Below are positions 17,663 to 46,262 of a DNA stretch of 64,000 nt, piece after piece. Below the pieces are notes generated by a model. The model was not told the DNA's origin and made no database searches. It saw nothing but the letters and a program-made list of their open reading frames with translations. The stretch lies in the NCBI GenBank assembly GCA_045536135.1, contig JAZSNA010000003.1, forward strand, positions 45,108-109,107, given 5' to 3'. Position numbers and translations under genes: made by a program. Origin of the DNA: Alphaproteobacteria bacterium (GTDB lineage: Bacteria > Pseudomonadota > Alphaproteobacteria > CAAHEQ01 > UBA3637). Every line of letters begins with the position of its first letter. Within the stretch, counting starts at the first letter, position 1.

Positions 17663-17666
17663 TGTT

Positions 17667-18610: not shown

Positions 18611-18618
18611 TAAACCTC

Positions 18619-20142: not shown

Positions 20143-20144
20143 TA

Positions 20145-20945: not shown

Positions 20946-20956
20946 CTTATAAATCC

Positions 20957-21793: not shown

Positions 21794-21794
21794 G

Positions 21795-26523: not shown

Positions 26524-26536
26524 TTTGGAATTCCTT

Positions 26537-28025: not shown

Positions 28026-28034
28026 GAAAACCTC

Positions 28035-29063: not shown

Positions 29064-29065
29064 GG

Positions 29066-29404
29066 TTAAGCTCCTTGGTTAGTTTTTACAAAAATGCTTT
29101 TATCTCTGAGCTTATCTGTCAGAGTTGCCACATCAACAGAGGCTTTCAAAGCTGATGCGTTAAATTCGCCGGTTAAATAAATAACAGCTTGTTTATCTTC
29201 ACTTGATGCATCAACAGTTTCAGCTAAAACAGCCTCAGGGTTATCAGAGCAGATGGTGTATTTACCGTCTGATTTGCTTAAGATTGTGCCTTTTTCATAG
29301 GAACCACCTGTAATGGTTGCTAAGATGCCAACCCTTGGAAATTCGCCTGCGAGTAAGTTATCGGCCGTTGAAGTTCCTAAATCCTTAAATCCTTGTACAG
29401 TCAT
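29066..29404 (-). CDS. head decoration protein (lambda D-like)
   Basis: 112 aa (lambda D is 110 aa). It lies directly upstream of the E-like gene. Confidence 0.45.
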   Translation of the reverse strand: MTVQGFKDLGTSTADNLLAGEFPRVGILATITGGSYEKGTILSKSDGKYTICSDNPEAVLAETVDASSEDKQAVIYLTGEFNASALKASVDVATLTDKLRDKSIFVKTNQGA

Positions 29405-30516: not shown

Positions 30517-31933
30517 GGTTTTCTCCTAATGTTAAACCTAATTCGGCAAGTTTGGCTTTTTCTCTTGCTCTTTGCTCTAAAACTTCTTCCCAGTCTAAGC
30601 CTTGACCGGCACATTCAGCCTCTAAGGTTGAAAGTCCTATCTCCATTCGGATTTGGCAGGCTTGGGCTTCCTTAACCGGATCAACCCAACCACGACCCGG
30701 ACCGATCCACTTACATCTTGTGTATGCATAGCGGTTCTCATAAAAGTCAGGAGCATCAACTAATCCTTTATTAACGACTTCTTCTAGCCATAGTTCATAA
30801 ACCGGTGTTGCCCAGTAATCGGACAGCCATTGACGGCGACCGTTGAAATATCGCCAAGCTTCTAACAAGGCAGAACGGGCGGATGAGTAATTGGTCTTTG
30901 AGAAGTCTTTTAACAGCAACTCATACGGAATGTTTAATCCGGTTCCGATGTGTCGGAGCAAGTTTTCAACGAAAGCACCATATGCCGAGTTCGGGCGAGA
31001 CGGGGTAAATGGGGCGACCTTATCTCCGGGGAATATCGGAATAATCGAACCACCCTCTAACTTGACCTGCCAATCTTTTTTGGCATTCAAGTATTCATCG
31101 CTTGAACCACCGAACAGTTCGTTTAAGCCTTCATTATCCATCGGCGTTTCAATAAATGCGGCAATCATTGCATTCACAATGGCGGCCTGCAGTTCTGACC
31201 GCTCATAATGATCGAGCATTTTGAACATCGGCATAATGGCACTTAGGACAGGCTTTCCACGATTTTGACCAATTCGGCTGATATCGTGAACGTGTAGAAC
31301 TCGTCTTCGGCCAAAAGGAGTAAAAGCCGAAATACGCTCCCAAGACGCAGTTCCTGTCCAATAATCGCCCGGATGGTCTTTTTGAATGTGATAGGCAATG
31401 GGGGCTCCATACTTATCAATTTCAATACCACCTCGGAGTGTTTTGGTATCGCTGACATTGTTGGGGTTTGATAATCTGTCAGGCTCTACCAACTGTATGG
31501 CCGTTGAAAAAGGTCTGTCTTTCAACCATAACGGCAAAGCCAAAGCCTCGCCATTGATAAGGCAGGACTTGAAAACTTGTGTCGTTAGGCCATGAAAGTT
31601 TAACTTCTTGGCGGCATCGCAGTTAAATGTTTCAGCCCATGAACGCCAAAGACCTTCCACCTTTGCTTGCCATTCTTCTTCCCATTCTTTGGTTTTACCT
31701 AATGCTTTATAATCCGGCTTGACCGACAAACGAAACCCTGTACCGACAATGTTATCGGATAAGGTTTGCATGGCACCCGAAGCCACACCATGGTTACGGG
31801 CCAAATCCCTTGAACGGGCAACAATTGTATTTAATTCCGGTAATAGGTCGCTGTCCGCCGACCCACGTCCGGGGAGCCAAGAAGCAATCTCTCTTAAAGA
31901 GTGCGAGGCTGATTTATGTGATGTGTCTGTCAT
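30425..31933 (-). CDS. portal protein (lambda B-like)
   Basis: 502 aa. It lies between the W-like and C-like genes, and overlaps the C start as in lambda. Confidence 0.65.
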   Translation of the reverse strand: MTDTSHKSASHSLREIASWLPGRGSADSDLLPELNTIVARSRDLARNHGVASGAMQTLSDNIVGTGFRLSVKPDYKALGKTKEWEEEWQAKVEGLWRSWAETFNCDAAKKLNFHGLTTQVFKSCLINGEALALPLWLKDRPFSTAIQLVEPDRLSNPNNVSDTKTLRGGIEIDKYGAPIAYHIQKDHPGDYWTGTASWERISAFTPFGRRRVLHVHDISRIGQNRGKPVLSAIMPMFKMLDHYERSELQAAIVNAMIAAFIETPMDNEGLNELFGGSSDEYLNAKKDWQVKLEGGSIIPIFPGDKVAPFTPSRPNSAYGAFVENLLRHIGTGLNIPYELLLKDFSKTNYSSARSALLEAWRYFNGRRQWLSDYWATPVYELWLEEVVNKGLVDAPDFYENRYAYTRCKWIGPGRGWVDPVKEAQACQIRMEIGLSTLEAECAGQGLDWEEVLEQRAREKAKLAELGLTLGENHETIKQDSLGNNARDVADDDDDSEAEQQKP

Positions 31934-32172
31934 TAGAATGCCACCTTTATCATACGTCTGCGAGAGGTTGTCGTTTTACCTTCGGCCACCGCAATTTGAG
32001 ATTTTAGACTTGAGATATAACTTTCCAAAGCCGCTCGTGAGGTTTGGTTGTAGGTCACCGAACCGAAATTGCCGACATTGACCGAAACTTCCTTGGCTCC
32101 GATGAGCAGTTTATGGTAGGCTTCTTCTGCCTCAGCCAATCGTGTTTTGAGTAATTCTTTATCTATAACCAT
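31933..32172 (-). CDS. head-tail joining protein (lambda W-like)
   Basis: 79 aa, helical. It lies between the TerL and portal genes. Confidence 0.35.
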   Translation of the reverse strand: MVIDKELLKTRLAEAEEAYHKLLIGAKEVSVNVGNFGSVTYNQTSRAALESYISSLKSQIAVAEGKTTTSRRRMIKVAF

Positions 32173-34106
32173 GGATTATCCACCTTTGTTGGTTGCATTT
32201 GAATAAATCGTTTTTTCTTTTGAACCGGAACAGCCGAGCTTTTGGCCGGAATAACGGCTTCTAACTCTTGCCATGCCTTTTCACTTAATCGGTCTAGGCC
32301 ATAAATTGCAGCTCCGGCACGAGCATAAACTCGGCAGTCCAACGCTTCGTTTCGTCTTGCCGGATCCTTTTCCCATATGGGTTTTGGATAGCCATTGCTG
32401 ATTTTCACGACCTGACGTTCAGCGGTCAGCTGTTTGAAGTATTCCTCCGAGTATTGGGGGAAATGGCATCGTCCGAAATCCGTTGCATTTTCACCAATGC
32501 GTTCCATCTTCAACCACCGGTAAAGTTCGGTCTTAACAACCGGACCCGATACGTTCCAAACCTTCAGGCCTTTCTTTTTCGTGTCGGCCTTAGAGGTTGA
32601 CAAGAGCATTGCGGTGTCTCGGCTTTGACCTTTAATCGCCACAACTGTATGAGGCTGACTGGCTCTTGCACCGGAACCACCCCAAACAGCTTGGTTAAAG
32701 TTTTTGACGAAGTTATAAACGTCTTGGGTTGCATAACCGGAGTCAACGCACATCACCCGAATGGGCATCGTGATACCGCTTTCGTGTGGGTAGTCCTTAT
32801 GAAGCACATTTTGTAATTGCCGCCATACGTCAGGTTTTGCCGTATCGCCGTCAAGAACAAAATACTCCACCGACCAACTTTGCTTTTGTCGTCCCCAAGC
32901 CACAACCTCGCATTCGATACGGTCTTTTTGAATATCCACACCGGCGGTCAGGAATAGGCCACCGCTTGGAACCGTTCCAATCGGGTATGTTTCCCTTGTT
33001 TCATACAGGCGTTGCCATTCAGGTGCATCACTTTCTTGTTCAAAGGTTTCACCCAAGATGGTGTTTTGAAAACCTTGTATTAAACTCGGGTTTTTCTTGG
33101 TCTTTTCGTAGATGTCCACACATTCTTTCCACGACAACCACCCAACCGGAGAGTAAAGCGATGACAAGTGAAATCCTGCCGTTATACCATCGCTTTGGGC
33201 AGTTGCCTGCCAATGGCCATTTGCCAGCATCTGCGTTTTATAATGCTCGCCGATGAGTTTATTACAATGTTCGCACTCATAATAAACATTATCGCCTTCA
33301 GCTCGTATCTGTGACCATTCCAACTTTTGAAATCCGCCACAATAAGGGCAAGGCACGACATAGTATCGTTTATCGGAGTTTTCAAACTCACGCTCTATAT
33401 TTGATAAACCCTTGATGGTTGGGGTTGATACCAAGAATATCTTTTTGCGTTTGTTAAAAGTTGCGGTTCTTCGCTCGGCCAAAAGAATTGGATCACCTTC
33501 GCCGTCAATGTCCTGAGGGTAGCCGTCCACTTCGTCCATAAACAGGTAACGAGCCGGCATGGAACGAAGTCCAACGGCCGAGTTTGCACCGGTCATCACA
33601 AGTACGCCGCCTTGAAAGTCTTTTGACAGCATTGTGTTGCCTTTATCCCGAGAGCGAGGTGAACTGACCAGATTTTTTAACGCCGGACAGTCCTCGATCA
33701 ACGGGTCAATACGTTGACGAGAGTTACGCTTGGCCATTTCCACAGTTGGCGACACCGCCATTATTGGACCGGGAGCCTTGTGCATGATATATCCGATCCA
33801 GTTATTGCCGCATTCGGTTCCGCCGATTTGGGCTCCTTTCATAAAGACAACTTTCTGTATCGGGCTCTTGGGCGATAAACAGTCCATAATCTCTCTTAAA
33901 TAAGGCGTTCTTGATGTTCGCCAACGTCCGGGTTCGGATGCCGATTTACTGGACAGGACACGATATTCATCGGCCCAGTCTGACACCGACATATATGAAT
34001 CCGGTTCAACACCACGAAAAAACTCGCCTTCAATATAATCTGCCGCATCAAAGTTCTCGGTCGATAACGTCCTTGCTTTCTGATAAGAGTTTTCGGATAT
34101 ATTCAT
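32163..34106 (-). CDS. terminase large subunit (lambda A-like)
   Basis: 647 aa with Walker-B-like YLFMDEVD and C-terminal nuclease-like acidic residues. It follows the Nu1-like gene. Confidence 0.75.
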   Translation of the reverse strand: MNISENSYQKARTLSTENFDAADYIEGEFFRGVEPDSYMSVSDWADEYRVLSSKSASEPGRWRTSRTPYLREIMDCLSPKSPIQKVVFMKGAQIGGTECGNNWIGYIMHKAPGPIMAVSPTVEMAKRNSRQRIDPLIEDCPALKNLVSSPRSRDKGNTMLSKDFQGGVLVMTGANSAVGLRSMPARYLFMDEVDGYPQDIDGEGDPILLAERRTATFNKRKKIFLVSTPTIKGLSNIEREFENSDKRYYVVPCPYCGGFQKLEWSQIRAEGDNVYYECEHCNKLIGEHYKTQMLANGHWQATAQSDGITAGFHLSSLYSPVGWLSWKECVDIYEKTKKNPSLIQGFQNTILGETFEQESDAPEWQRLYETRETYPIGTVPSGGLFLTAGVDIQKDRIECEVVAWGRQKQSWSVEYFVLDGDTAKPDVWRQLQNVLHKDYPHESGITMPIRVMCVDSGYATQDVYNFVKNFNQAVWGGSGARASQPHTVVAIKGQSRDTAMLLSTSKADTKKKGLKVWNVSGPVVKTELYRWLKMERIGENATDFGRCHFPQYSEEYFKQLTAERQVVKISNGYPKPIWEKDPARRNEALDCRVYARAGAAIYGLDRLSEKAWQELEAVIPAKSSAVPVQKKKRFIQMQPTKVDNPWL

Positions 34107-34563
34107 CTAACACCACCACCGTTTTGTGTTCGTCTGTTTCCAATGCCGCCGCAATGAGAGCTCCGTACCTTGTTGGAAACGAAACGAACAAATCTCTTAA
34201 TGATCTGCCTAGGTTGAATGCGTGTAATCCTGCCTTTTTGCGGTCAATTGTTTCTCCTGTAATCATTTTGAGCTTTGCCTTGGCAAGCATAGCTCGATAA
34301 TAAATGTCTGCCGTTTTTGCTTGTTGAAAGTTTGACATCCCGTTTTTGGGCATGCCACCGCCGTCAGATGTTTCAAATAATGGATCAGCTTTTCTGCTTT
34401 TGGCTGGGTCAGTGTTCATGAACCATTCCTTATTGGCTTCCTCCACATCAATTTTCCCATCAGGCGTTTTATGTATGCGACCGGAGTTAACGGCTGTCTG
34501 AACTGCATTAAGTCGAACCCCACGCATTCGGGCATATTCCCGAAGTGAAACCTTTTGTCCCAT
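34048..34563 (-). CDS. terminase small subunit (lambda Nu1-like)
   Basis: 171 aa with an N-terminal HTH (SLREYARMRGVRLNAVQTAVNSG). It is the first gene of the late operon. Confidence 0.5.
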   Translation of the reverse strand: MGQKVSLREYARMRGVRLNAVQTAVNSGRIHKTPDGKIDVEEANKEWFMNTDPAKSRKADPLFETSDGGGMPKNGMSNFQQAKTADIYYRAMLAKAKLKMITGETIDRKKAGLHAFNLGRSLRDLFVSFPTRYGALIAAALETDEHKTVVVLDEYIRKLLSESKDVIDREL

Positions 34564-35020: not shown

Positions 35021-35056
35021 AAAAAAGGTGCGGTTAACTGCCGCACCTTTGTTTTT
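35021..35056. terminator. bidirectional rho-independent terminator
   Basis: aaaggtgcgg-ttaactg-ccgcaccttt is a perfect 10-bp stem flanked by an A-run on the 5' side and a T-run on the 3' side. It sits between convergent genes. Confidence 0.6.
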
Positions 35057-37115
35057 AACCATCTAATTGTTCATTTAACGCTTGCGATATGATTGATATA
35101 ACATAATCAATTTTAGTTACATCATCAATATGTATTCCGACTTCTCCTGTTCCCCATCGTCCTTTGCCTTTATAATCAACGCACATTCCTTCGGGGTCAT
35201 GTATTTTATCAAAATCAATATTGACATTTATGAATAAAGCATTTTTTTGAGGAACGATATCAACAAAATTTGTATCAGCTTTATATGCAATATATAACTT
35301 TGTATATTCTCTTTTGACCGAGGAATCTAAGTTCATTATTTTTTTATCAAGCTCATTATATAAACTTAATGTTTCTTCTGAAAAACTGTCGGAATAAATA
35401 TCAAAAGTGTATTCACTTCTTTTTTTTAATGGTTTTTCTTTATATTGCTGTAGTACTTCTTCTGATACAGAAGGGAATTTCCAAATTTGAATAGCATTTT
35501 TAGATAGAATTTCTGCTCTTTCTTTAATTTTGTCAGCATTCCATTCAGTTTGATTGCGAATGTAAGAATTTAAACGCAAACCAGTATCAGAAAATCCGCC
35601 CTTCATAGTCAATTTATCATTAAACGATCTATCACTCATTTCTGAATTATAGGCAGTTAGTGTTAAATTTCCTATGGTGTGGAGATATTGTGTATGAATT
35701 GCTTGCCAATCTTTACCAAGAGCTTCCTTCCACCCATTACGTAAATTTTCATTTTCAGGCATTACGTGTTCTATTGTAAATGATCCAAGATCAAGTTTTT
35801 CCTTGTTGTCGTATCTTTCAAGTTTGCCAAGTATGTATTGACGGATACGCATGTGATAAATATCTTTTTCTACAAAGCGTTGAGAAAATTCCTCATTTTT
35901 GGGAAACTCTTTATAAGAATCAAGCAAAATGTAATTTGCACATATCGAATTTACGTAATCATTTGCATTAATTTTATTCCTCATTACTGCAAACGTTTTA
36001 TTTAATGAGTTTGTAGGAATTTCACAAATTGCTCGTCTAAACACATAGCTTTCTGTAAAACGTAATATTTTTATAAAATCTTCTCTTGTTATCTTATCAT
36101 TGTTGTAATCATTGTAGACATACATAAGGAATGGATATGCAACTTCCATTCGTAAAAGTCTTATGTCTGCAAAAATTTCATTTAATTCATTATCATTTGT
36201 TTCAGAAAAAATAATGTTTGTATAGCATTTAGCGTAATTATAGATATCGTCACAGTGCTCCATATTTGTTATATTCAGACTTTGATGATATTTCTTAAAT
36301 TCTTCGTAAACATTACCTTCTTTGGGAATTCTTGAAATTTTCATAGTGATGTAGTCTCTGAAAAAACGATCCATTAGTTCCGATTGTTTTTCGTAATTAA
36401 ATAATTTTTCAGTAGGCATCCACTTTTTGTTATATAAATCTGTTTGTTCTTGGTTGCTTAATCCCATTAAAATGTAATTTCGGATTAAATCTGATTGAGA
36501 TAAATCAAGTCCTGTTGAGTTTAAGCTCTCAAAAATAGACTGAGGATTGTCTGAAGACGGGTCGAGAATAATATTAACAATTTGCAGTTTCGCAATTGCA
36601 TTTTCTATTTGTTCTTGTGTTAAATCAGAAGAACTAATTTGTCTTGAGAAAAAGTTATAGGCATCTAATACACGAGAGTTTTTAACATCATCGATTGGAA
36701 CATTTTCTATTAATTTTATAAGAACGTCTTTATCATTGTATGTTAAAGCAAGCTTATATTTATCGTTTTCGTTTTCTGTATCATTTTTTAAGAATTTTCT
36801 TGTGATACTGCTTTTAATTCCCTGTGAGGTTAAATAATCACGAAGTGCAGTCAGTAAAATCGTTAATGTGGTTAAACGCTGTTGACCATCAATAACCATG
36901 AATTTAGATGTACCAGAGATAGATGCACTTTCAATAACACAAACAATAGAACCAATAAAATGGCCTTTTTTATTATGCTTTTCTAGGAAAACAATATCTT
37001 CCCACAATTTACTACATTGTTCTTCTTTCCAACTATACATACGTTGATATAATGGGACAATAAATTGGGTATCGCCATTGAAAATTTTTAGTACGTTTCC
37101 GTCTTCTGCCTTCAT
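35055..37115 (-). CDS. GmrSD-family (DUF262 + DUF1524) type IV modification-dependent restriction endonuclease
   Basis: N-terminal DUF262 signatures PLYQRMYSW and VIDGQQRLTTL, and a C-terminal His-Me/DUF1524-like FTIEHVMPENENL...H..GNLTL. The start is probably the ATG at 37115 (GAGGA RBS). Confidence 0.6.
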   Translation of the reverse strand: MKAEDGNVLKIFNGDTQFIVPLYQRMYSWKEEQCSKLWEDIVFLEKHNKKGHFIGSIVCVIESASISGTSKFMVIDGQQRLTTLTILLTALRDYLTSQGIKSSITRKFLKNDTENENDKYKLALTYNDKDVLIKLIENVPIDDVKNSRVLDAYNFFSRQISSSDLTQEQIENAIAKLQIVNIILDPSSDNPQSIFESLNSTGLDLSQSDLIRNYILMGLSNQEQTDLYNKKWMPTEKLFNYEKQSELMDRFFRDYITMKISRIPKEGNVYEEFKKYHQSLNITNMEHCDDIYNYAKCYTNIIFSETNDNELNEIFADIRLLRMEVAYPFLMYVYNDYNNDKITREDFIKILRFTESYVFRRAICEIPTNSLNKTFAVMRNKINANDYVNSICANYILLDSYKEFPKNEEFSQRFVEKDIYHMRIRQYILGKLERYDNKEKLDLGSFTIEHVMPENENLRNGWKEALGKDWQAIHTQYLHTIGNLTLTAYNSEMSDRSFNDKLTMKGGFSDTGLRLNSYIRNQTEWNADKIKERAEILSKNAIQIWKFPSVSEEVLQQYKEKPLKKRSEYTFDIYSDSFSEETLSLYNELDKKIMNLDSSVKREYTKLYIAYKADTNFVDIVPQKNALFINVNIDFDKIHDPEGMCVDYKGKGRWGTGEVGIHIDDVTKIDYVISIISQALNEQLDG

Positions 37116-37219
37116 GAAAATCCTCACTTTTGATATAAAACTTTTAGTATTCTATGAAATGCCAAAATAAAAAGCAACAAAAATTAAGTTTTTTGTTACT
37201 TCAATGCCACAATTTGACA

Positions 37220-37775: not shown

Positions 37776-37776
37776 T

Positions 37777-39024: not shown

Positions 39025-39050
39025 TTTAAGCTCCTTTTGTTATTGTTTTT

Positions 39051-39123
39051 CTAGGCTTTCTCTGCCTTTCCTTACAATTACATTGTTGCTTGGAATTCGA
39101 AATTTATCCAGTTAATTCTGCAT
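39051..39123. repeat. 73-bp direct repeat, copy 2
   Basis: See copy 1. It lies between the ParB-MTase stop and the next gene start. Confidence 0.55.
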
Positions 39124-40372
39124 CATTTTCGGTTATTTCTGCTTTATTTTCAATAAGTTGGGCTTTGTTGCCGGTATATTCCTCCCAACGCCTGATAATG
39201 ACGTCGCAAAACTTCGGATCTAGCTCAATTAATCGGGCAGAACGACCCGTTTTTTCGCACGCAATCAGCGTCGAGCCGGAGCCTCCGAAACCATCTAAAA
39301 CGATATTCCCGATTTTAGAGCTGTTATTTATGGCTCTTTCCACCAGTTCAACCGGCTTCATTGTTGGGTGTAAGTCGTTTTTGACCGGTTTATTGTATTC
39401 CCAAACGTCTGCCTGATCCCGGTCACCACACCAATGATGCTTTTGTTCGGCGTTCCAACCGTAAAGAATAGGCTCATATTGTCGCTGATAGTCGGCTCGG
39501 CCAAGGGTAAAGGTGTTCTTTTTCCAAATGATGAAGGTCGACCACTTGCCACCGGCATTGATGAACGAGTTATAAAGGGTATGCAGTTCAGATGAACTCA
39601 TGCACACATAGGCGGCACCTTTACAATACATCATCATATTGGATAAGCTATCCGTCAGAAACTGAGCAAAACCTTCGCCAAGGTTATCGTTCATAATCTT
39701 TCGGCCACCGAGTGAACCGGCATGATAGCGAATGCTGTCTTTCATGGTGGAGCCATAGTTCACGTTATAAGGTGGGTCTGTGAAAATCATATCGGCGACT
39801 TCGTCCTGCATTAGCTTTTTAACGTCATCAATCATAGTGGTATCCCCACAAATCAGACGGTGTCTGCCCAGTTGCCAAATATCGCCACGCTTTGTGACAG
39901 CTTCCTCGGGTGCTTCCGGAACTTCGTCATCATCGGTGTTACCGGACGACTTTTCCTCACCGAACAGTTGAATTTCGTTTAGTTCGTCCGGATTAAACCC
40001 AAGCAGGTTCAAATCAAAGTCCAGTTCTGAGAGTTCTTCCATTTCAAGGTGGAGCATCTCTTCATCCCATCCGGCATTTAGAGCAATCTTGTTGTCGGCA
40101 ATGACCAAGGCCCGGCGTTGAGTTTCGGTTAAGTGAGGCAACCTGATGACCGGAACCTCTGTCATACCAAGACGTTGTGCGGCCATAAGGCGACCATGAC
40201 CGGCGATTATAACATCATCATCTCCAATCAGGATTGGGTTTGTGAAACCGAACTCCTTAATGCTTGCCACAATTTGGGCGATTTGTTCATCGTTATGTGT
40301 CCGAGAGTTTCGGGCATATGGGATGAGCTTTTCGGTCGGATATTTTTCATTAAATTCCATGTAATTCTCCAT
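39104..40372 (-). CDS. ParB-like nuclease domain / DNA methyltransferase fusion (N6-A or N4-C MTase)
   Basis: The N-terminal ParB/Srx-like region has an IAGHGR motif. The C-terminus has an IFTDPPYNVNY (DPPY) catalytic motif and an FGGSGST SAM-binding motif. Confidence 0.7.
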   Translation of the reverse strand: MENYMEFNEKYPTEKLIPYARNSRTHNDEQIAQIVASIKEFGFTNPILIGDDDVIIAGHGRLMAAQRLGMTEVPVIRLPHLTETQRRALVIADNKIALNAGWDEEMLHLEMEELSELDFDLNLLGFNPDELNEIQLFGEEKSSGNTDDDEVPEAPEEAVTKRGDIWQLGRHRLICGDTTMIDDVKKLMQDEVADMIFTDPPYNVNYGSTMKDSIRYHAGSLGGRKIMNDNLGEGFAQFLTDSLSNMMMYCKGAAYVCMSSSELHTLYNSFINAGGKWSTFIIWKKNTFTLGRADYQRQYEPILYGWNAEQKHHWCGDRDQADVWEYNKPVKNDLHPTMKPVELVERAINNSSKIGNIVLDGFGGSGSTLIACEKTGRSARLIELDPKFCDVIIRRWEEYTGNKAQLIENKAEITENDAELTG

Positions 40373-40385
40373 AAAAAATACAAAG

Positions 40386-40421
40386 TGACCAGCCAGATTT
40401 TGAAATGACCAGCCAGAAAAA
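40386..40421. repeat. direct repeat TGACCAGCCAGA x2 immediately upstream of the ParB-MTase start (operator-like)
   Basis: The 12-mer occurs at 40386-40397 and 40410-40421, with a degenerate third copy gtgaccagtaaag at about 40468. Confidence 0.45.
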
Positions 40422-40573
40422 ACAAGACACCCTCAAACCCCAGTAAATACAATGGTTTCCGAGTATGGGTGACCAGTAAAGAAAAAGGTGTTTCGCTAGA
40501 AAAATCGGGCGGCTTGCGTCCCCGCATACGAACAGAGCCCAGGAAGGACCCGTTGCCCCGGAGCTGTCCAAGA

Positions 40574-40945
40574 TAGTATCTCGTTAGTATGATACTAACC
40601 ACCCAAACGGGCCAAAACCCGAGAGAGTATGTTGACAGTATGATACTATCCGTCAAATCCGGCTCAAAACCTCGATACCGTCTTGATAGTATGATACTAT
40701 CTGCCTATTGTGACGGGACGGTCGGGCTATGGTTTATCATAGCGAACATATATGCAAATCTATGCGAATATATGTCCGATATATGTGCAATATAGGGCGA
40801 TATTCCGTCAGAATAGCCCATATATATGTCTTATATGTGAGGCAACACCGACATATAATGTTATATGTTCGCATAGTATGATAATATCCGGCAATTCTGC
40901 CCAAAAGTTGGGATTATATGTCGTTAGTATGATATGTTCCGGCAA
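40574..40945. repeat. iteron array: five copies of near-palindromic TAGTATGATACTA, plus ATATGT-rich repeats
   Basis: Copies at 40584-40600, 40636-40650, 40685-40701, 40872-40894 and 40924-40945. An identical 14-mer tcgttagtatgata occurs at 40581 and 40921. Interspersed are atatgt/catatat repeats at 40741-40870. Confidence 0.6.
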
Positions 40946-40955
40946 ATTCGGGGGA

Positions 40956-41957
40956 TTATACCAAACCATTTCGGCATAAACGGGCGAAAACTGGCTTTGT
41001 TAAGTCCAATTCTTCAGCCAGTTCAATCGGGGTTTTGGCCACCGAGATGGCGGTATTTGTCTCGACACCTGACTTGATGGTCTTCACAACTGCACTTGGC
41101 AGTTCGGCTCGGCCAATACAGGAGGAGAGATAGACAAAGCACTCGTCGTTATCTTCCAAATAACGAAGAGCTAAACGGCGAGCATAGATGTTCAGTGTTA
41201 CATCTGCCTTGCTGCCGTCTTTAGTCCAAGGCGAGCCACCACCGATCGGACAGGCAGTAGAGTAAAAATCGCAGGCCAATTTGCGACCGGTAATGCCGCA
41301 GTCTGCGATGGAGGAATGCAATTTGAAACTTCCGGTGCCGTTAACTATGATGTTGTCAGGCTTTTCTCCGAGTGTTTCAATGATAAAATCTGTTAAATCT
41401 TCCGGTTCTTTCATCGGAATGGCAACGACAGCCGTTTCAATTCGGCCGTAGTCGTTTAAGGTTATCTGTGTTTTAATGTCAATGCCAAGGTTTTTGCTTT
41501 GACGAGCCTTAATATAAAGGGCATTGTTAAGGGTACGAGCGAGATAAAGCTCTCGGTTTATCAGGCCTTCACCTTTACAGGCGTAACCGACAAATACACC
41601 TTGGTCGCCCCAACCATTGGCTACTACGCCTTGGTTGATGTCTGCTGACTGCTGACCGATGAGGTTGATGACTTCGATTTTTCGAACATCTATGGCATTT
41701 TGTCCCCACATTTCGGCATATTTTTCATCATAACCGATATCTCTCAGGGCATTTTTAACGAACTCTTTGACATCTGACAGGACAACTTTTCCTTTGATTT
41801 CGCCTCCTAAAACGACGGTGTTGTCTTTGACCATAACCTCAACGGCATATTTGACGTCCGGGTCTTGGGCGATCATGCGGTCAAGGATATAACTGGAAAT
41901 ATAGTCGGCCGTTTTGTCCGGATGTCCGAGCGAAACGAACTCTGCTGTTTTTTTCAT
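40956..41957 (-). CDS. metK: S-adenosylmethionine synthetase (MetK) homolog, compact 333-aa phage-encoded form
   Basis: Aligns by eye along its whole length to E. coli MetK: GHPDKTADYIS..ILD......DP, GGEI, QSADINQGV, GWGDQGVFVGYA, DCGITGRKL, and a GGG loop. Confidence 0.65.
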   Translation of the reverse strand: MKKTAEFVSLGHPDKTADYISSYILDRMIAQDPDVKYAVEVMVKDNTVVLGGEIKGKVVLSDVKEFVKNALRDIGYDEKYAEMWGQNAIDVRKIEVINLIGQQSADINQGVVANGWGDQGVFVGYACKGEGLINRELYLARTLNNALYIKARQSKNLGIDIKTQITLNDYGRIETAVVAIPMKEPEDLTDFIIETLGEKPDNIIVNGTGSFKLHSSIADCGITGRKLACDFYSTACPIGGGSPWTKDGSKADVTLNIYARRLALRYLEDNDECFVYLSSCIGRAELPSAVVKTIKSGVETNTAISVAKTPIELAEELDLTKPVFARLCRNGLV

Positions 41958-42074
41958 CTTTTCTCCTTTTTGCTTATAAAAAAAGGCCCGACAGATGAAC
42001 TGCCGAGCCGGATGCTATATGTAAAAATGTATAAACGGGACGATTACGTAGAACCATCCCGATTATACCCTTAT

Positions 42075-42503
42075 TTATAGCGATTTCTTTTGAAAGTGTC
42101 CACTCATTTTTTGCACTCTGCATTTTTCCTTTCCTTTTAGGTAAAACTCAATCTTTACAATGGCTTTATCATACTTGAGCATTAACCTTGTTCTGCAAAG
42201 GCCAAATTCTCGGCATAAAATTTTCCAAGGAATTCGGTTGGCCCGTTTCCAAACAAGGCGGCGTTCATCAATCTCTAAAAGTGGTATCCATTCTAAAGTG
42301 ACAGTCTCCCATAAACTGACCTGTGCCTGAGTTGGACGAGGCCGAACCGGTCGGCGGTCCATCAGGGCCATTTCTTGCGGCGTGTATATAATCTCGGGCA
42401 TCAAACACCGATATCTGGAAGAACGGACAGGCGGCAACAACCGATCCACATAGGCGGCCGTTTCCAAGTTTGCTTTGATTTCTGCGATGGTCTTAGGTTT
42501 CAT
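42075..42503 (-). CDS. hypothetical protein with putative HTH
   Basis: 142 aa. IPWKILCREFGLCRTRLMLKY resembles an HTH segment. Confidence 0.3.
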   Translation of the reverse strand: MKPKTIAEIKANLETAAYVDRLLPPVRSSRYRCLMPEIIYTPQEMALMDRRPVRPRPTQAQVSLWETVTLEWIPLLEIDERRLVWKRANRIPWKILCREFGLCRTRLMLKYDKAIVKIEFYLKGKEKCRVQKMSGHFQKKSL

Positions 42504-43161
42504 CCGGCACCACCTTTACTTTGCTAAGCACATCATGACAGATGTCCGACATGGTCTCCATCTCTGAGTAGACAAGACCGTTTTCCTTGCAAAACCATTT
42601 CCGGACGGCTTTACGCCAGTCAACGGCAATGTATTTCTTGCCGTTCATCCAACCACGTTCTTCGTTCCACCGAACGAAGGCAACTGGGTCAATTGTATAT
42701 CCACTTCGTTTGCAGTATTCAGCCACTTCTTCAATGCTTGGAGCACCGACATATCCGGACTTATCCACATTTTCCGTCTCTTTATTTTTATTATTTTTAA
42801 TAAAAACATTTTCAGACTCTTCTCCTTTATCCTTCTCCTTATCAGGTTTTTCGTTGGCGGAATTTGGAGGTGGTTCTGAAACCTTAAGGTTTTCTTTTTC
42901 CTTTTTCGGACGACCACCTTTAGAGCCGCCAGCCTTACGTTTTTCGCAGGTTTCAAAATATTTGCGATTGTTTTCATCAATGCCTGCTTGCAAAAAATTA
43001 AAACGGTCTTGAACTTTTTCCGATAAATTTTTTGTAATTTTTCCGTACAGAGCGTATTCACAAAGAGCCTTAATTAAATTCGCACATTCACAATTTGTGA
43101 AATTATACACAGAAGCAAGGAACTCCGCCGGATAAAACACGAATGACGTTTTTCTATCCAT
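42493..43161 (-). CDS. hypothetical protein (possible replication/regulatory function)
   Basis: 222 aa with a low-complexity K/E-rich linker between two globular halves. No firm motif. Confidence 0.25.
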   Translation of the reverse strand: MDRKTSFVFYPAEFLASVYNFTNCECANLIKALCEYALYGKITKNLSEKVQDRFNFLQAGIDENNRKYFETCEKRKAGGSKGGRPKKEKENLKVSEPPPNSANEKPDKEKDKGEESENVFIKNNKNKETENVDKSGYVGAPSIEEVAEYCKRSGYTIDPVAFVRWNEERGWMNGKKYIAVDWRKAVRKWFCKENGLVYSEMETMSDICHDVLSKVKVVPDET

Positions 43162-43399: not shown

Positions 43400-43477
43400 T
43401 TTTTCTCCTTTTGTTAATGTTGATACAAAAGGTAAATTCCCGATAAAGTCGAAATGTGCCGAAAAAAAATAATTTTT

Positions 43478-43987
43478 TTATTTTTTTATCTTTCCTCGTT
43501 TTATTCGTTCATCAATATCTTTCAAAACAGTATGTGAAATTCTTAGCTTATTCCTAGCATTTCTAACGGTTTCTCCATTTAAAATAAGGTCTACAAATTG
43601 ATTTTGTTTGTCTGATAAAAATTTTCTTTTTTCTTCAAATTCGATTTTATTTTCAATGTCTGCCAGCGAAAACGTATCTTCAAGTTCAAAACCTTCCTTT
43701 TCAAACATACTATTTAATGACTCTTTATTAAAAAAACCCGACTGCTTTTCTCGCAATCGGGTTCGTCCTAGGTGCATGGCTTTAGATTTAATCGCCATAA
43801 AAAGTGTATCATTTGGAATTTCAGGACCTCGCTTTCTAATAAACTCCAAATAAAATAAAACTAGATCCTGAACGATGTCTTCACGTTCTTGATAATCAAA
43901 AAGTCCTGTTGAGTAAATATAATGCAGATGTATTTTAATATAGGTCACCACATTTTGGGGCAAACCTTTGAATAAATATTGAGCCAT
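43478..43987 (-). CDS. sigma-70 family (ECF-like) sigma factor, phage-encoded
   Basis: A region-2-like segment DIVQDLVLFYLEF and a C-terminal region-4-like HTH (LSDKQNQFVDLILNGETVRNARNKLRISHTVLK). Confidence 0.4.
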   Translation of the reverse strand: MAQYLFKGLPQNVVTYIKIHLHYIYSTGLFDYQEREDIVQDLVLFYLEFIRKRGPEIPNDTLFMAIKSKAMHLGRTRLREKQSGFFNKESLNSMFEKEGFELEDTFSLADIENKIEFEEKRKFLSDKQNQFVDLILNGETVRNARNKLRISHTVLKDIDERIKRGKIKK

Positions 43988-44143: not shown

Positions 44144-45850
44144 TCATTTAAATCCAAGTTCACGACGTTGTTCTGCCCAAGAATATGGGAAACGCTCTCT
44201 TAATAATCTTCTTAATGTGAGTAGTTTAGGCTGACGACCTTCTAAAATAGCCATAATAATATCGGGTGCAAGGGTTGTAAGACGAATGATTTGACCAAGA
44301 TAACTATGATTGCATCGTTCGTGTTTAGATAACTCTGCCAACGACCATTTTCTTGTTTCCATTTTCTCTTTTAAATAAAATGCTTGAGTTACTGCATTAA
44401 ATAGTTTTTCATCTCGAGCAGGAAGTTCTTTTGTTGGATTTGTTGGCTCTACAATTTTAACACTTCCCCGTTTACGTCCAAAAGTTACTTCATATTTTAG
44501 AATTAGGCTTTTTTTACAGTAATTAGGATTTTCTCCTATTAGTTGATTTTCATAAATCTGAGCCCCATAAGGTTTTAACTTTATTTCTATATAATCTTTA
44601 TGCAAAATAACTTTTTCTAAAATTTCTGCGATAAAATCATGAACGGTTGCCGGTTCAAAATACTGAAAAACTTCTCCAATATCATTGACTAAATCAAAAG
44701 CTGTACTGGCAGTGTAGTTCGGATTGACTTCTTCTAATTGACGAGCCAGTTCTTTTATTATTTCTGGTGACTTAAATATCTGCTGTATTTTACCGATAAC
44801 AAATGTATCTAGCTCTCCAGCTGGAACACTTCCTATTTTACACGGTTTATATTTAACGCCTTCTTTTACACCTTTTAGAGCAGAATAGTATTCGTAATAT
44901 TTATTGCCATGTTTACTGCGTGTGGGAATCATTGTACCACAACACTCACATTCAAGCAGACCTTTTAATAGGCTATGCTTTATAGAACGAGACGGTCTAA
45001 AGGCATTCTTCAAATTATCGTGCTTTAAATTTATTGTTCGATCCCATAATTCTTGAGTAATAATAGCTTCGTGCTGTCCTTCATACAATTCACCTTTATA
45101 AGGCATTTTTCCAAGATAAATAGGATTGTTTAAAATGTTATTTATCATCGAGTGATTAAACTCATCATTATTCTTTAATGTTCCATCCTTATTTCGTCGT
45201 TCTTTAGGTTTATAACCTCGATTGTTTACATTATGCGTTGTAGCCGCTTCCGACCTTGTACGGATATAATCTTCAAATATAAATCGAATTATTTCAGCTT
45301 CAGAAGGCTCGATAATCAGTTTCTTGTTTTTAAGGGTATATCCCAAAGGGACAGAACCTCCAGTCCACATTCCTTTTTTTCGACTTGCGGCGATTTTATC
45401 ACGTACACGTTCTGCACCCAGTTCTCTTTCAAATTGAGCAAAGGATAATAAAATATTTAGAGTCAACTTACCCATGGAATCGCAAGTATTAAAATGTTGT
45501 GTGACAGATACAAATGAACAGTTATGCTTTTCAAAAGTTTTAACAAGTTGTGCAAAATCAAGAAGTGAACGGGTAAGTCGGTCTATTTTATAAACAACAA
45601 TCATATCTACTTTTCCAGCCTCAACATCTTCAATAAGTCGTTTTAAAGCAGGGCGTTTTAAACTGCCACCACTAAAACCACCATCGTCATAATGTTCTGG
45701 GATTGTTATCCAACCTTGGTGTTTCAGACTTTTAACATAGTTCTCACCGGCTTCTCGTTGAGCTTCTAAGGTATTAAATTCTTTTTCAAGTCCTTCATCT
45801 GTTGACTTTCTTGTGTAAATTGCACATCGTATCTGTTTTTGTGTTTCCAT
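44144..45850 (-). CDS. large serine recombinase (phage integrase)
   Basis: N-terminal resolvase domain with catalytic Ser (CAIYTRKSTDEG...) and GKVDMIVVYKIDRLTRS, followed by a long recombinase domain with a Cys-x2-Cys zinc ribbon. Start set at METQKQ, which has an AAGGAG RBS. Confidence 0.85.
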   Translation of the reverse strand: METQKQIRCAIYTRKSTDEGLEKEFNTLEAQREAGENYVKSLKHQGWITIPEHYDDGGFSGGSLKRPALKRLIEDVEAGKVDMIVVYKIDRLTRSLLDFAQLVKTFEKHNCSFVSVTQHFNTCDSMGKLTLNILLSFAQFERELGAERVRDKIAASRKKGMWTGGSVPLGYTLKNKKLIIEPSEAEIIRFIFEDYIRTRSEAATTHNVNNRGYKPKERRNKDGTLKNNDEFNHSMINNILNNPIYLGKMPYKGELYEGQHEAIITQELWDRTINLKHDNLKNAFRPSRSIKHSLLKGLLECECCGTMIPTRSKHGNKYYEYYSALKGVKEGVKYKPCKIGSVPAGELDTFVIGKIQQIFKSPEIIKELARQLEEVNPNYTASTAFDLVNDIGEVFQYFEPATVHDFIAEILEKVILHKDYIEIKLKPYGAQIYENQLIGENPNYCKKSLILKYEVTFGRKRGSVKIVEPTNPTKELPARDEKLFNAVTQAFYLKEKMETRKWSLAELSKHERCNHSYLGQIIRLTTLAPDIIMAILEGRQPKLLTLRRLLRERFPYSWAEQRRELGFK

Positions 45851-45851
45851 T

Positions 45852-46262
45852 TTATTCTCCTTGTTTATCAATACCAAAAAAATATCTGCCAGATATTTTT
45901 CTACCGGTTATTTTTTTTGCAATTGCTGATAGGCTTGGGTACTTCATCCCATTGTATTCAAAGCCATCATTTAGAATAATGACCGAATGTTCAACCTGTT
46001 GGTATTCACGAATAATTCGTGTACCGGTTGGCGGAAGGTTCTTTCTTCCATCCGGAGGGACATACATCTGTGCAATAAGTTTTTGTTGTGCCTTTGGTAA
46101 ACCTCCGTAAGCAAGCTCTTGTATTCGATAAGCTATTCGGGAAACAAAAAACTCTTTATTTTGAGAGATCGTTGGTTCTGTAAAATATTCTTTCCACATT
46201 TCTTGTAGCTCTGGTAAAGATTTATTCTTTAATAAAGCTATTTCAACTACGACCGATTTCAT
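45852..46262 (-). CDS. DUF2924-like protein (conserved partner gene upstream of large serine recombinases)
   Basis: 136 aa. YPSLSAIAKKITGRKISGRYFFG matches my recollection of the DUF2924 hallmark. It abuts the recombinase start. Confidence 0.4.
   Translation of the reverse strand: MKSVVVEIALLKNKSLPELQEMWKEYFTEPTISQNKEFFVSRIAYRIQELAYGGLPKAQQKLIAQMYVPPDGRKNLPPTGTRIIREYQQVEHSVIILNDGFEYNGMKYPSLSAIAKKITGRKISGRYFFGIDKQGE

What the first reader, a model, noticed from the sequence alone, without database searches (positions are those of the whole stretch)
40956..41957. Phage-encoded compact S-adenosylmethionine synthetase (MetK homolog) next to a ParB-MTase
The protein aligns along its whole length to MetK signature regions but is about 50 aa shorter. 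A phage bringing its own SAM synthetase is uncommon. It could feed the adjacent DPPY methyltransferase (self-protection against host restriction-modification). It could also counter SAM-depleting host defences or SAM-dependent defence systems such as BREX. A phage-adapted MetK could be resistant to host feedback or to phage SAM-lyase-type inhibition.
Basis: partly seen in the sequence, partly recalled or inferred. Interest (0 to 1): 0.65.

Follow-up and report, generated by a model that had tools for sequence, protein, structure and literature searches.

The report
Host-derived SAM synthetase in a prophage
A prophage of an uncultured gut alphaproteobacterium carries an intact, strongly conserved copy of its host lineage's own unusually short SAM synthetase (MetK), but without the SAM-sensing RNA leader that precedes the chromosomal copies; this is a real but fairly ordinary phage auxiliary metabolic gene.

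Summary
The ORF is real: 40956-41957, minus strand, 333 aa. It is a full-length MetK homolog with the MetK fold. All catalytic and ligand-binding residues checked are conserved. It sits inside a siphovirus-type prophage, 584 bp upstream of a ParB-N6/N4 DNA methyltransferase.

The shortness is not a phage adaptation. The same 331-348 aa form is the single-copy chromosomal MetK of many gut Alphaproteobacteria MAGs. Prophage copies are scattered among chromosomal ones in the tree (one prophage clade: 0% bootstrap; whole compact clade: 100%). It is not a recent copy, though: prophage copies are 65-72% identical to their own host's gene, with dN/dS about 0.05.

Most chromosomal copies follow a SAM-V-like pseudoknot leader. 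Eight of the prophage copies keep it. The window's lineage has lost it and has a terminator-like hairpin 25 nt before the ATG instead.

The MetK-methyltransferase adjacency recurs in unrelated phages, but 79 of 80 related ParB-MTase phage contigs have no MetK.

Verdict: a probable active SAM synthetase acting as a host-derived, feedback-uncoupled auxiliary gene. Its purpose (SAM for phage DNA methylation) is plausible but unproven. Phage MetK is already widely annotated. Interest is modest.

The parts
40956..41957 (-). Compact MetK-like S-adenosylmethionine synthetase gene (333 aa).
   Evidence: ORF. Pfam, TIGR01034 and PHROG matches. Catalytic residues. MetK fold. dN/dS about 0.05. It is the only MetK homolog in the window.
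41985..42009 (-). GC-rich hairpin followed by U7 (intrinsic-terminator-like). It ends about 25 nt upstream of the MetK ATG. In this prophage lineage it occupies the place of the promoter and riboswitch found on chromosomal copies.
   Evidence: 10-bp stem with 7 GC pairs, then TTTTTTT. The 131-nt leader folds at -42.1 kcal/mol, z = -6.0. Several divergent prophage lineages have a hairpin at the same position with different stem sequences.
42015..42080 (-). First leader hairpin, just after the DUF6362 stop codon. It is probably the weak terminator of the upstream operon. A homologous hairpin plus U7 is present in riboswitch-bearing prophages such as L004.
   Evidence: Fold. Sequence. Comparison with the L004/L049/L050 upstream sequence.
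39104..40372 (-). ParB_N-N6_N4 DNA methyltransferase fusion (422 aa). DPPY at residue 199, FGGSG at 362, ParB GHGR at 58.
   Evidence: Pfam and PHROG phrog_498 at 553 bits. Motifs. Conserved downstream of MetK on the same strand in nearly all prophage loci.
40373..40955 (-). Non-coding spacer between MetK and ParB-MTase. It has five copies of TATCATACT (minus strand) starting at 40586, 40637, 40688, 40875 and 40926, spaced 51, 51, 187 and 51 bp. It also has ACATATA-rich inverted repeats at 40739-40876, and two GGCTGGTCA repeats at 40383-40417 just before the MTase start.
   Evidence: 6 motif hits in the window against 0.45 expected. Repeat families. The same spacing is kept in the closest relatives only. 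The GGYTGGTCA pair is conserved upstream of ParB-MTase across lineages.
42075..42503 (-). DUF6362 protein, the conserved upstream neighbour of MetK in the prophage module.
   Evidence: Pfam at 66.9 bits. Synteny.
42493..43161 (-). DUF6291 protein, part of the conserved module.
   Evidence: Pfam at 54.1 bits. Synteny.
43478..43987 (-). Sigma-factor-like / GerE-like small regulator of the module.
   Evidence: phrog_1740 at E = 6.6e-6. The ORF at the same position in relatives has a weak GerE hit.
44144..45877 (-). Large serine recombinase (prophage integrase) at the right end of the prophage, followed by a DUF2924 gene at 45852-46262. tRNA-Pro lies at 46833-46909.
   Evidence: Resolvase, Recombinase and Zn_ribbon_recom domains. 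DUF2924. tRNA.
15440..34563 (-). Prophage structural and packaging block: J-like tail protein, tape measure, major head protein, protease, portal, terminase large and small subunits.
   Evidence: PHROG matches. GC content is raised (0.38-0.47) relative to the host flanks (0.29-0.39).
35055..37127 (-). GmrSD-type (type IV restriction-like) defence cargo gene. It is not found in any related prophage locus.
   Evidence: GmrSD_N, GmrSD_C and DUF5655 domains. PADLOC Orf5/HEC-06/mREase_IV models. No hits in the 90 loci.

Best explanation
The gene encodes a catalytically competent S-adenosylmethionine synthetase (ATP + methionine -> SAM + PPi + Pi). It belongs to a compact MetK clade that is the ordinary chromosomal MetK of a group of uncultured, low-GC gut Alphaproteobacteria.

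A lineage of temperate siphophages of these bacteria took the gene from host chromosomes, more than once or with later exchange. The phages keep it at a fixed slot: after the early DUF6291-DUF6362 genes and before a ParB-DNA methyltransferase.

Chromosomal copies, and some prophage copies, are preceded by a promoter and a SAM-V-like pseudoknot leader that abuts the ribosome-binding site. That arrangement would shut translation off when SAM is high. In the window's lineage this segment is gone. Only an upstream terminator-like hairpin and a plain Shine-Dalgarno remain, so the phage copy is uncoupled from SAM feedback.

The most likely use is to raise SAM supply under phage control. The most plausible beneficiary is methylation of replicating phage DNA by the downstream ParB-methyltransferase, which would protect the DNA against restriction.

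Shown: homology, fold, residue conservation, purifying selection, host origin, loss of the leader, synteny.

Inferred: enzymatic activity, SAM responsiveness of the leader, timing of expression, and the link to methylation.
For: Enzyme:
- Three MetK domains.
- The closest solved structures are all MetKs, down to E = 2.6e-40.
- Predicted fold matches MetK structures at TM 0.72-0.78.
- H14, D16, K17, E42, E55, Q98, D118, D163, K165, D238, R244, K245, K265, K269, D271 and I302 are invariant in 39 prophage and 48 chromosomal copies.
- dN/dS is 0.04-0.08 among prophage copies and 0.04-0.09 among closely related chromosomal pairs (0.16 for one divergent pair).

Host origin:
- 49 of 90 loci are non-prophage contexts, with MotA/B, HisRS, ABC-F and glycosyltransferase neighbours.
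- Almost always one chromosomal copy per genome, plus 0-2 prophage copies.
- Compact clade bootstrap 100%. All prophage copies as one clade 0%. Prophage L030 with chromosomal L032 100%. Prophage L004/49/50 with chromosomal L035/39/40 84.5%.
- Equal lengths, and no discriminating alignment column.

Leader:
- Conserved 58-nt element with a full-length though sub-threshold SAM-V match.
- Pseudoknot pairs 96.5% formed, against 51% or less in shifted controls, with compensatory changes in P1.
- The covariance model finds it at 60-79 bits upstream of metK in 49 loci, and nowhere in the window or in class-T prophages.
- 111 of 113 informative metagenome occurrences precede a compact metK.

Link to methylation:
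- Same-strand ParB-MTase 0.2-2.9 kb downstream in almost all prophage loci.
- Independent MetK-to-DNA-MTase adjacency in Streptococcus, Mycoplasmopsis and Evtepia phages.
Against: - No biochemical data exist for this clade. It scores far below the TIGR01034 equivalog cutoff (168 vs 309 bits).
- The model has low confidence over residues 104-119 and 216-251, which are the gating loop and the triphosphate loop.
- I could not check whether the host genomes also carry a canonical MetK.
- The methyltransferase does not depend on a phage MetK. Only 1 of 80 IMG/VR contigs with a 49-78% identical ParB-MTase has one.
- The space between the two genes is a hotspot for unrelated defence-type cargo. The ParB-MTase also has its own conserved repeat pair just upstream. 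The adjacency could therefore be positional rather than functional.
- No promoter is recognisable between the upstream terminator-like hairpin and the ATG, so how and when the gene is expressed is unknown.
- The SAM-V match is below Rfam's gathering score. P2 never varies within the family, so covariation support rests on four P1 pairs.
Confidence: 0.55

Rival explanations
1. Lysogenic-conversion cargo ('moron'). The MetK is expressed from the resident prophage and benefits the lysogen by adding SAM-synthesis capacity. In the window's lineage it is free of riboswitch feedback. The function has nothing specific to do with the phage methyltransferase.
For: - In riboswitch-bearing prophages the gene keeps a host-type TTGACA promoter and leader behind a terminator, which makes it an autonomous cassette.
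- It borders a slot that collects defence-type cargo.
- In S. agalactiae, deleting a truncated prophage metK changed aggregation, glycocalyx and biofilm of the lysogen (PMC8223999).
- 79 of 80 related ParB-MTase phages do without it.
Against: - The window's copy has lost the host-type promoter and sits directly behind a strong terminator-like hairpin. That argues against simple constitutive expression in the lysogen.
- A riboswitch-controlled second copy would add little SAM at steady state.
- The recurrent adjacency to DNA MTases in unrelated phages is not explained.
Confidence: 0.25
2. Counter-defence or exclusion function. The extra MetK keeps SAM available when it is being depleted or when host MetK is inhibited, for example by a SAM lyase/MetK inhibitor of a superinfecting phage or by a SAM-consuming host system. 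This would sustain SAM-dependent restriction or BREX in the lysogen, or methylation by the phage.
For: - T3 SAM lyase both cleaves SAM and inhibits MetK to escape BREX and type I R-M (bioRxiv 10.1101/2023.02.27.530186; PDB 8bb1 appears).
- The gene lies among defence-type cargo slots, and this prophage also carries a GmrSD-like enzyme.
- The phage copy is 65-72% identical to its own host's MetK, so it is a distinct target.
Against: - This is purely circumstantial. No SAM lyase or SAM-depleting system was seen in the window or the related loci.
- Only two conservative substitutions (L159I, L253V), plus Y211F in a subset, distinguish the window's class from chromosomal copies. There is therefore no sign of an altered inhibitor-binding surface.
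Confidence: 0.1
3. Non-catalytic decoy or poison subunit. The protein forms mixed oligomers with host MetK to lower or redirect host SAM synthesis.
For: MetK active sites form at a dimer interface, and the phage protein is about 70% identical to host MetK. Heteromers are therefore conceivable (inference).
Against: Every catalytic, metal-binding and substrate-binding residue examined is invariant in all 39 prophage copies. Selection on prophage copies is as strong as on chromosomal copies. No class-specific changes fall at functional positions.
Confidence: 0.04
4. Functionless passenger. The gene is host DNA picked up by imprecise excision or recombination and is on its way to decay.
For: The gene is clearly host-derived and sits near the integrase end of the prophage.
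Against: - It is retained at the same internal slot in at least 38 prophage loci from many species.
- dN/dS is about 0.05 at dS 0.5-1.5.
- ORFs are intact and of constant length.
- It is separated from the attachment end by five or six phage genes, including the integrase.
Confidence: 0.03

Closest known systems
Bacterial MetK / methionine adenosyltransferase (EC 2.5.1.6; E. coli MetK 1fug/7ll3; 'unusual' Campylobacter jejuni MetK 4le5)
   Same: Three-domain MetK architecture and fold. GHPDK, GxGDQG, D-x-K, TGRK and GGG..KD..K.D motifs, and all catalytic residues. The best sequence and structure match is C. jejuni MetK (E = 2.6e-40; Foldseek E = 1.3e-21, TM 0.77).
   Different: 36% identity to E. 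coli MetK over aligned columns. 51 aa shorter: gating loop shorter by 5, central-domain loops shorter by about 24, no 23-aa C-terminal tail. Scores half the TIGR01034 equivalog cutoff. NCBI labels relatives only as 'methionine adenosyltransferase domain-containing protein'.
Prophage-borne truncated MetK of streptococcal phages (Javan prophages, phi1207.3, 12/111phiA)
   Same: A shortened MetK inside a temperate phage. It lies after the replication/early genes and is followed on the same strand by DNA methyltransferases. The catalytic core is judged intact, and deleting the gene gives a phenotype in the lysogen (PMC8223999).
   Different: Only 32-36% identical, so it is an independent acquisition from a different host phylum. 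No riboswitch story is known for those copies. The streptococcal copies are reported as truncated relative to their host's MetK, whereas here the host's own MetK is equally short.
Viral auxiliary metabolic genes for SAM synthesis (KEGG K00789 in virome surveys)
   Same: A host-derived metabolic gene inside a phage genome. SAM synthetase is reported among the most abundant viral AMGs in manure digesters, next to DNA cytosine methyltransferase (PMC13644194).
   Different: Those are annotation-level calls with no analysis of origin or regulation. Here the donor clade, repeated host-phage exchange and loss of the regulatory leader are documented.
SAM-V / SAM-II riboswitches (Rfam RF01826, RF00521). 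This applies to the chromosomal homologs' leader, not to the window.
   Same: An H-type pseudoknot abutting the Shine-Dalgarno. It resembles the SAM-V consensus closely at the sequence level (AUUU.AAC..UUGU.C ... ..ACUAAA.AAGGAG) and occurs in Alphaproteobacteria. SAM-V is known to repress translation in Pelagibacter (PMC5069961).
   Different: Scores 20.3 bits against a gathering score of 41. The P2 core is GUCC/GGAC instead of GUGC/GCAC. Here it controls metK, whereas validated SAM-V examples precede metY, bhmT and mmuM. Ligand binding is untested.
ParB-CTPase-fold / N6_N4 methyltransferase fusions of prophages
   Same: The neighbouring gene has exactly this architecture, which is reported as enriched in prophages and proposed to act in anti-defence (PMC12704722).
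   Different: That literature does not link these fusions to a phage MetK. In IMG/VR, 79 of 80 close relatives have none.

Membership tests
MetK / S-adenosylmethionine synthetase superfamily (Pfam PF00438, PF02772, PF02773) | Three consecutive MetK domains covering the protein. | tested here: met
   N domain 83 bits (GA 33.1). C domain 48.2 bits (GA 25). Central domain 28.3 bits, just below GA 29 but in the correct position, residues 115-194.
MetK / S-adenosylmethionine synthetase superfamily | Catalytic, metal-binding and substrate-binding residues in E. coli numbering: H14, D16, K17, E42, E55, Q98, D118, D163, K165, F230, D238, R244, K245, K265, K269, D271. | tested here: met
   All are present in the window protein. 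All are invariant in 39 prophage and 48 chromosomal relatives, except F230, which is F or Y.
MetK / S-adenosylmethionine synthetase superfamily | MetK three-domain alpha/beta fold. | tested here: met
   AlphaFold2 model with pLDDT 70.4 and pTM 0.69. All 50 Foldseek PDB matches listed are MetK/MAT structures, TM 0.71-0.78. The interface loops have low confidence.
MetK / S-adenosylmethionine synthetase superfamily | Catalyses SAM formation from ATP and methionine. | not testable with these tools
   Needs an enzyme assay or complementation.
TIGR01034 metK equivalog (NCBIfam) | Whole-protein score at or above the curated cutoff of 309.4 bits. | tested here: not met
   168.5 bits, matching positions 3-353 of 377. 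It is therefore a divergent subfamily, not filed as the canonical equivalog.
PHROG phrog_1569 (phage protein family, function unannotated) | Full-length profile match. | tested here: met
   E = 1.5e-69, 236 bits, residues 3-332 against profile positions 3-336 of 346.
Phage auxiliary metabolic gene of host origin | Located inside a phage genome, flanked by phage genes on both sides. | tested here: met
   Serine recombinase, DUF6291 and DUF6362 upstream. ParB-MTase, terminase, portal, capsid and tail genes downstream. The same module appears on IMG/VR viral contigs.
Phage auxiliary metabolic gene of host origin | Orthologs in host chromosomes, with phage copies nested among them. | tested here: met
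   49 non-prophage loci. Bootstrap: compact clade 100%, prophage monophyly 0%, phage-chromosome sister pairs 84.5-100%.
Phage auxiliary metabolic gene of host origin | Maintained by purifying selection in the phage. | tested here: met
   dN/dS 0.04-0.08 for unsaturated prophage pairs.
SAM-II/SAM-V riboswitch, as a leader of the window's gene | Aptamer present upstream of the gene. | tested here: not met
   The covariance model built from the chromosomal leaders has no hit in the 64-kb window at E <= 1. An Rfam E-value scan of 34000-48000 finds no riboswitch.
SAM-II/SAM-V riboswitch, as a leader of the chromosomal homologs | Score at or above the Rfam gathering threshold for RF01826. | tested here: not met
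   20.3 bits against 41, E = 0.13-0.36, full-length match. Not detected at the gathering threshold in 11 loci.
SAM-II/SAM-V riboswitch, as a leader of the chromosomal homologs | H-type pseudoknot supported by the alignment, next to the ribosome-binding site. | tested here: met
   96.5% of cells paired against 51% or less when shifted. Two P1 pairs show changes on both sides. P2 is invariant. AAGGAG lies immediately 3' of P2.
SAM-II/SAM-V riboswitch, as a leader of the chromosomal homologs | Selective SAM binding. | not testable with these tools
   Needs in-line probing or ITC.
ParB-N6_N4 DNA methyltransferase fusion (the neighbouring gene) | ParB_N domain plus a beta-class amino-MTase with DPPY (motif IV) ahead of FxGxG (motif I). 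| tested here: met
   PF02195 at 32.1 bits and PF01555 at 90.6 bits. DPPY at 199, FGGSG at 362, GHGR at 58.

The most novel reading that the evidence does not exclude
Temperate phages of gut Alphaproteobacteria repeatedly capture the host's metK together with its promoter and SAM-sensing pseudoknot leader. Some lineages, including this window's, then delete the promoter and riboswitch. The result is a feedback-blind SAM synthetase under phage transcriptional control, behind a terminator that needs read-through. It would overproduce SAM during phage development to drive ParB-methyltransferase-based anti-restriction. This would be a documented case of a phage 'unplugging' a riboswitch from a stolen metabolic gene. 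It would also define a sub-threshold SAM-V-like riboswitch variant dedicated to metK.
Probability: 0.25. Interest if true: 0.6.

Novelty: new member of a known kind. Interest (0 to 1): 0.35.

Why it matters
Phage-borne SAM synthetases are flagged in many virome surveys, but I found no experimental characterisation of one. One 2026 preprint still states they have not been reported in viruses.

This locus gives an unusually clean natural history. The donor clade is identifiable. Host-to-phage transfer happened more than once. Both riboswitch-bearing and riboswitch-less phage versions exist side by side.

That makes a simple question testable: does a phage need SAM synthesis that ignores the cell's SAM level, and is that need tied to DNA methylation?

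It also shows that a whole clade of gut Alphaproteobacteria probably uses a 333-aa MetK that standard annotation declines to call MetK. That clade's MetK is preceded by a SAM-V-like leader that Rfam thresholds miss. Both points are useful corrections for metabolic reconstruction of these uncultured organisms.

Tried and rejected
- The 'Helicobacter phage' MetK hits are the host metK next to the prophage insertion hotspot, not phage genes (PMC11321410).
- An Rfam gathering-threshold scan of 11 chromosomal loci found only tRNAs. An Rfam E-value scan around the window gene gave only noise, including Spot 42 at E = 0.82.
- A viral-contig scan with the DUF6362 protein alone returned only the contig already known. 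I used a ParB-MTase alignment instead.
- Synteny among chromosomal loci is shared only by close relatives, at most 6-7 loci. It could not serve as proof of a housekeeping locus.
- The listing of cluster members on the 43-58% identical representatives gave no taxonomy; all are metagenome-only.
- The C. jejuni MetK structure paper is not in the library. I cite only the PDB entry title.
- A Biopython bootstrap timed out and was replaced by a numpy NJ with 200 replicates.
- My terminator scan of the MetK-to-MTase gaps mostly picked up a conserved GGYTGGTCA repeat pair rather than real terminators. So there is no evidence that MetK is followed by a terminator.
- The decoy and pseudogene readings were rejected on residue invariance and dN/dS.
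- I could not test whether the host genomes lack a canonical MetK.
Full report
**Observation.** The window has an ATG-initiated 333-aa ORF at 40956-41957 on the minus strand.
- It matches the N-terminal (83 bits), central (28.3 bits, just under the 29-bit cutoff) and C-terminal (48 bits) MetK Pfam domains in order.
- It matches TIGR01034 metK over positions 3-353 of 377, but at 168.5 bits against a 309-bit cutoff.
- It matches the full length of PHROG phrog_1569, a phage family with no annotated function, at 236 bits.
- It is the only MetK homolog in the window.
- The next gene on the same strand (39104-40372) is a ParB_N-N6_N4 methyltransferase fusion with DPPY, FGGSG and a ParB GHGR box. It starts 584 bp downstream.
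- The region from about 14.8 to 46.3 kb is a prophage. It has a J-like tail protein, tape measure, major head protein, protease, portal, terminase subunits, a large serine recombinase and DUF2924, and it lies next to tRNA-Pro. Its GC content is higher than the flanks.

**Is it a real SAM synthetase?**
- Alignment to E. coli MetK (PDB 1fug/7ll3; pairwise) shows conservation of H14, D16, K17, E42, E55, Q98, D118, D163, K165, F230, D238, R244, K245, K265, K269, D271 and I302.
- In 39 prophage and 48 chromosomal relatives these positions are invariant. The exception is the adenine-stacking aromatic, which is F or Y.
- An AlphaFold2 model (pLDDT 70, pTM 0.69; weak in the gating loop and the triphosphate loop, which sit at the dimer interface) matches only MetK/MAT structures at TM 0.71-0.78. 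The best match is the C. jejuni enzyme, whose PDB entry calls it 'unusual'.
- The 51 missing residues are loop trims: gating-loop DRADP, about 24 central-domain residues, and a 23-aa C-terminal tail.
- Pairwise dN/dS among prophage copies is 0.04-0.08 at dS 0.5-1.5, no higher than among chromosomal copies (0.04-0.09 for closely related pairs).

A decoy or a decaying passenger is therefore very unlikely. Activity itself is inferred.

**Where the gene comes from.**
- The family is large and tightly conserved. There are 5340 hits, and the best 120 are all at least 70% identical and mostly 332-340 aa long.
- A scan of species-representative genomes found 366 relatives, nearly all in uncultured animal-gut Alphaproteobacteria MAGs. 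The window is 99% identical to MAG SIG44, SUUK01.
- Of 90 fetched loci, 38 share the prophage module: serine recombinase, sigma-like gene, DUF6291, DUF6362, MetK, ParB-MTase, then TerS/TerL. 49 share none of it.
- The 49 lie among ordinary chromosomal genes such as MotA/MotB, HisRS, an ABC-F ATPase and glycosyltransferases. There is almost always one such copy per genome, and five genomes carry one chromosomal copy plus one or two prophage copies.
- Chromosomal copies are equally short (332-347 aa). No alignment column separates them from prophage copies.
- In a 200-replicate NJ bootstrap the compact clade has 100% support. All prophage copies as one clade has 0%. Prophage L030 pairs with chromosomal L032 at 100%. 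Prophage L004/49/50 pairs with chromosomal L035/39/40 at 84.5%. The window belongs to an 81%-supported clade of 20 prophage loci.
- Prophage copies are only 65-72% identical to the chromosomal copy in the same genome.

So the compact form is a trait of the host clade. The gene moved from hosts to this phage lineage more than once, or was exchanged afterwards. The window's copy is an old phage resident, not a fresh duplicate.

**A regulatory difference.**
- About 43 of 49 chromosomal copies share a leader of about 100 nt: a TTGACA promoter-like box, a variable hairpin, then a conserved 58-nt core ending in the Shine-Dalgarno.
- Rfam's only riboswitch-class match is a full-length SAM-V alignment below threshold (20.3 vs 41 bits). 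The sequence correspondence is close, with a GUGC/GCAC to GUCC/GGAC swap in P2.
- An explicit H-type pseudoknot is 96.5% paired across 26 distinct sequences, against 51% or less for shifted controls. It has compensatory changes in P1.
- A covariance model finds the element at 60-79 bits directly upstream of metK in 49 loci: 41 chromosomal and 8 prophage. It finds nothing in the window or in the other prophages.
- A metagenome scan for the motif found a compact metK downstream in 111 of 113 informative cases, 20 of them in the prophage module.
- SAM-V riboswitches repress translation in another alphaproteobacterium (PMC5069961).

This supports the chromosomal gene being a SAM-regulated housekeeping MetK. 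It also shows some phages captured the whole cassette. In the window's class the promoter and riboswitch are replaced by a GC-rich hairpin plus U7 ending about 25 nt before the ATG (41985-42009). Several divergent prophage lineages have a hairpin at the same position with different stem sequences. The arrangement looks like a deletion that left the upstream terminator and the Shine-Dalgarno. The window's copy is thus uncoupled from SAM feedback. How it is transcribed remains unknown.

**What it is for.**

In favour of SAM supply for phage DNA methylation:
- The ParB-MTase follows on the same strand in almost all prophage loci.
- In independently acquired cases a DNA methyltransferase lies within about 1 kb downstream of MetK. 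These are Streptococcus Javan269 and phi1207.3, Mycoplasmopsis PMF329 and Evtepia NatCom_11697. FP_Brigit has a ParB-like gene 3 kb downstream. Two other phages have nothing annotated nearby.

Against an obligate partnership:
- Only 1 of 80 IMG/VR contigs with a 49-78% identical ParB-MTase has a MetK.
- The MetK-to-MTase gap is a cargo hotspot. In different relatives it holds LmuB-like/PDC-M22B, PDC-S39, radical-SAM/SPASM and SocA-Panacea genes.
- The MTase has its own conserved upstream repeat pair.

A lysogenic-conversion role, as proposed for S. agalactiae 12/111phiA (PMC8223999), remains a serious rival. So, less strongly, does a role in keeping SAM available against SAM-degrading competitors.

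**Comparison and novelty.** Phage MetK genes are already annotated in 132 phage records, a few of which are really flanking host genes. They are prominent in AMG surveys (PMC13644194). ParB-MTase fusions are a known prophage feature (PMC12704722). I found no biochemical characterisation of a phage MetK. The finding is therefore a new member of a known kind. The added value is the identified donor clade, the repeated host-phage exchange, and the presence or loss of a SAM-V-like leader.

**Verdict.** Real feature, correct basic identification. The 'compact phage-adapted enzyme' reading is not supported. The link to the methyltransferase is plausible but unproven. Interest is modest.

Noticed in passing
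Related loci, e.g. L035:5942-5999, L043:5942-5999, L004:4705-4762 (not present in the window): A conserved 58-nt leader lies directly upstream of compact metK in gut Alphaproteobacteria: GAUGUGGAUUUAACCnAACUUGUCCCrC...GGACUAAAnAAGGAG. It resembles SAM-V (20.3 bits, below Rfam's cutoff of 41) and folds as an H-type pseudoknot with covarying P1. It occurs in 41 chromosomal and 8 prophage loci and in at least 111 metagenome contigs. It is probably an unannotated SAM-II/V-type riboswitch variant dedicated to metK.
   Followed up: partly
Metagenome loci such as L096, L103, L104 and genome loci L069, L090: In about 34 of 111 motif-bearing loci the metK start lies 100-140 nt after the riboswitch-like core instead of about 10-20 nt after it. 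The extra stretch contains a second GUGG...CCAC-like element and a second Shine-Dalgarno. It may be a tandem or extended expression platform.
   Followed up: no
L141 and L165 (metagenome contigs): In two loci the riboswitch-like motif is followed by a 145-148 aa ORF with no Pfam match (MLKFFVEAPTTDKGAISCLF...) instead of metK.
   Followed up: partly
window 40586-40934 (minus strand): Five copies of TATCATACT, each within a repeat unit of about 27 nt, are spaced 51, 51, 187 and 51 bp apart in the non-coding spacer between MetK and ParB-MTase. There are 6 hits in the window against 0.45 expected. The identical arrangement is present only in the closest relatives (L001, L011-L013, L015, L017), with three copies in L014. 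It could be an iteron, origin or regulator-binding array. The function is unknown.
   Followed up: partly
window 40739-40876: ACATATA/TATATGT-rich inverted repeats (arms up to 26 nt) lie between the two groups of TATCATACT repeats.
   Followed up: no
window 40383-40417 (and the same position in L002, L020, L022, L030, L044, L061, L075): A pair of direct repeats, GGCTGGTCA (GGGTGGTCACC in other lineages), spaced about 20 nt apart, lies immediately upstream of the ParB-MTase start codon. It is conserved across divergent prophage lineages. It looks like an operator, possibly for autoregulation by the ParB domain.
   Followed up: no
window 35055-37127 (minus strand): A 690-aa GmrSD-type (type IV restriction-like) protein with GmrSD_N, GmrSD_C and DUF5655 domains (PADLOC Orf5/HEC-06) lies between the early genes and the small terminase subunit. 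This is a low-GC stretch. The gene is absent from all 90 related loci, so it is prophage-borne defence cargo specific to this element.
   Followed up: partly
Related prophage loci L004, L005, L016, L018, L027, L028, L042, L068, L072, L078, L088 (between MetK and ParB-MTase): The MetK-to-ParB-MTase junction is a variable cargo slot. In different relatives it holds a Lamassu LmuB-like/PDC-M22B ATPase, PDC-S39 (DUF7380/DUF4209), a radical-SAM/SPASM protein, a SocA/Panacea-domain protein, and two unannotated families of about 290-326 aa.
   Followed up: partly
L008 (ENA contig ERZ28576714 scaffold_404): This is a truncated version of the prophage. The module ends right after MetK and is followed by an ApeA-like gene and a second resolvase-type recombinase. 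The MetK-proximal part of the element can therefore persist without the structural genes.
   Followed up: no
L051 and L058 (both on contig JAWXUC010000001.1): One MAG contig carries two non-prophage compact metK copies that are 66% identical to each other. L051 has the riboswitch-like leader (68.6 bits) and L058 has no hit. This is the only genome in the sample with two chromosomal-type copies.
   Followed up: no
window 43478-43987 (minus strand): A small sigma-factor-like/GerE-like protein is encoded just after the integrase in all members of the prophage module. If it directs phage-specific promoters, that would explain why no sigma-70-type promoter is visible in front of MetK.
   Followed up: no
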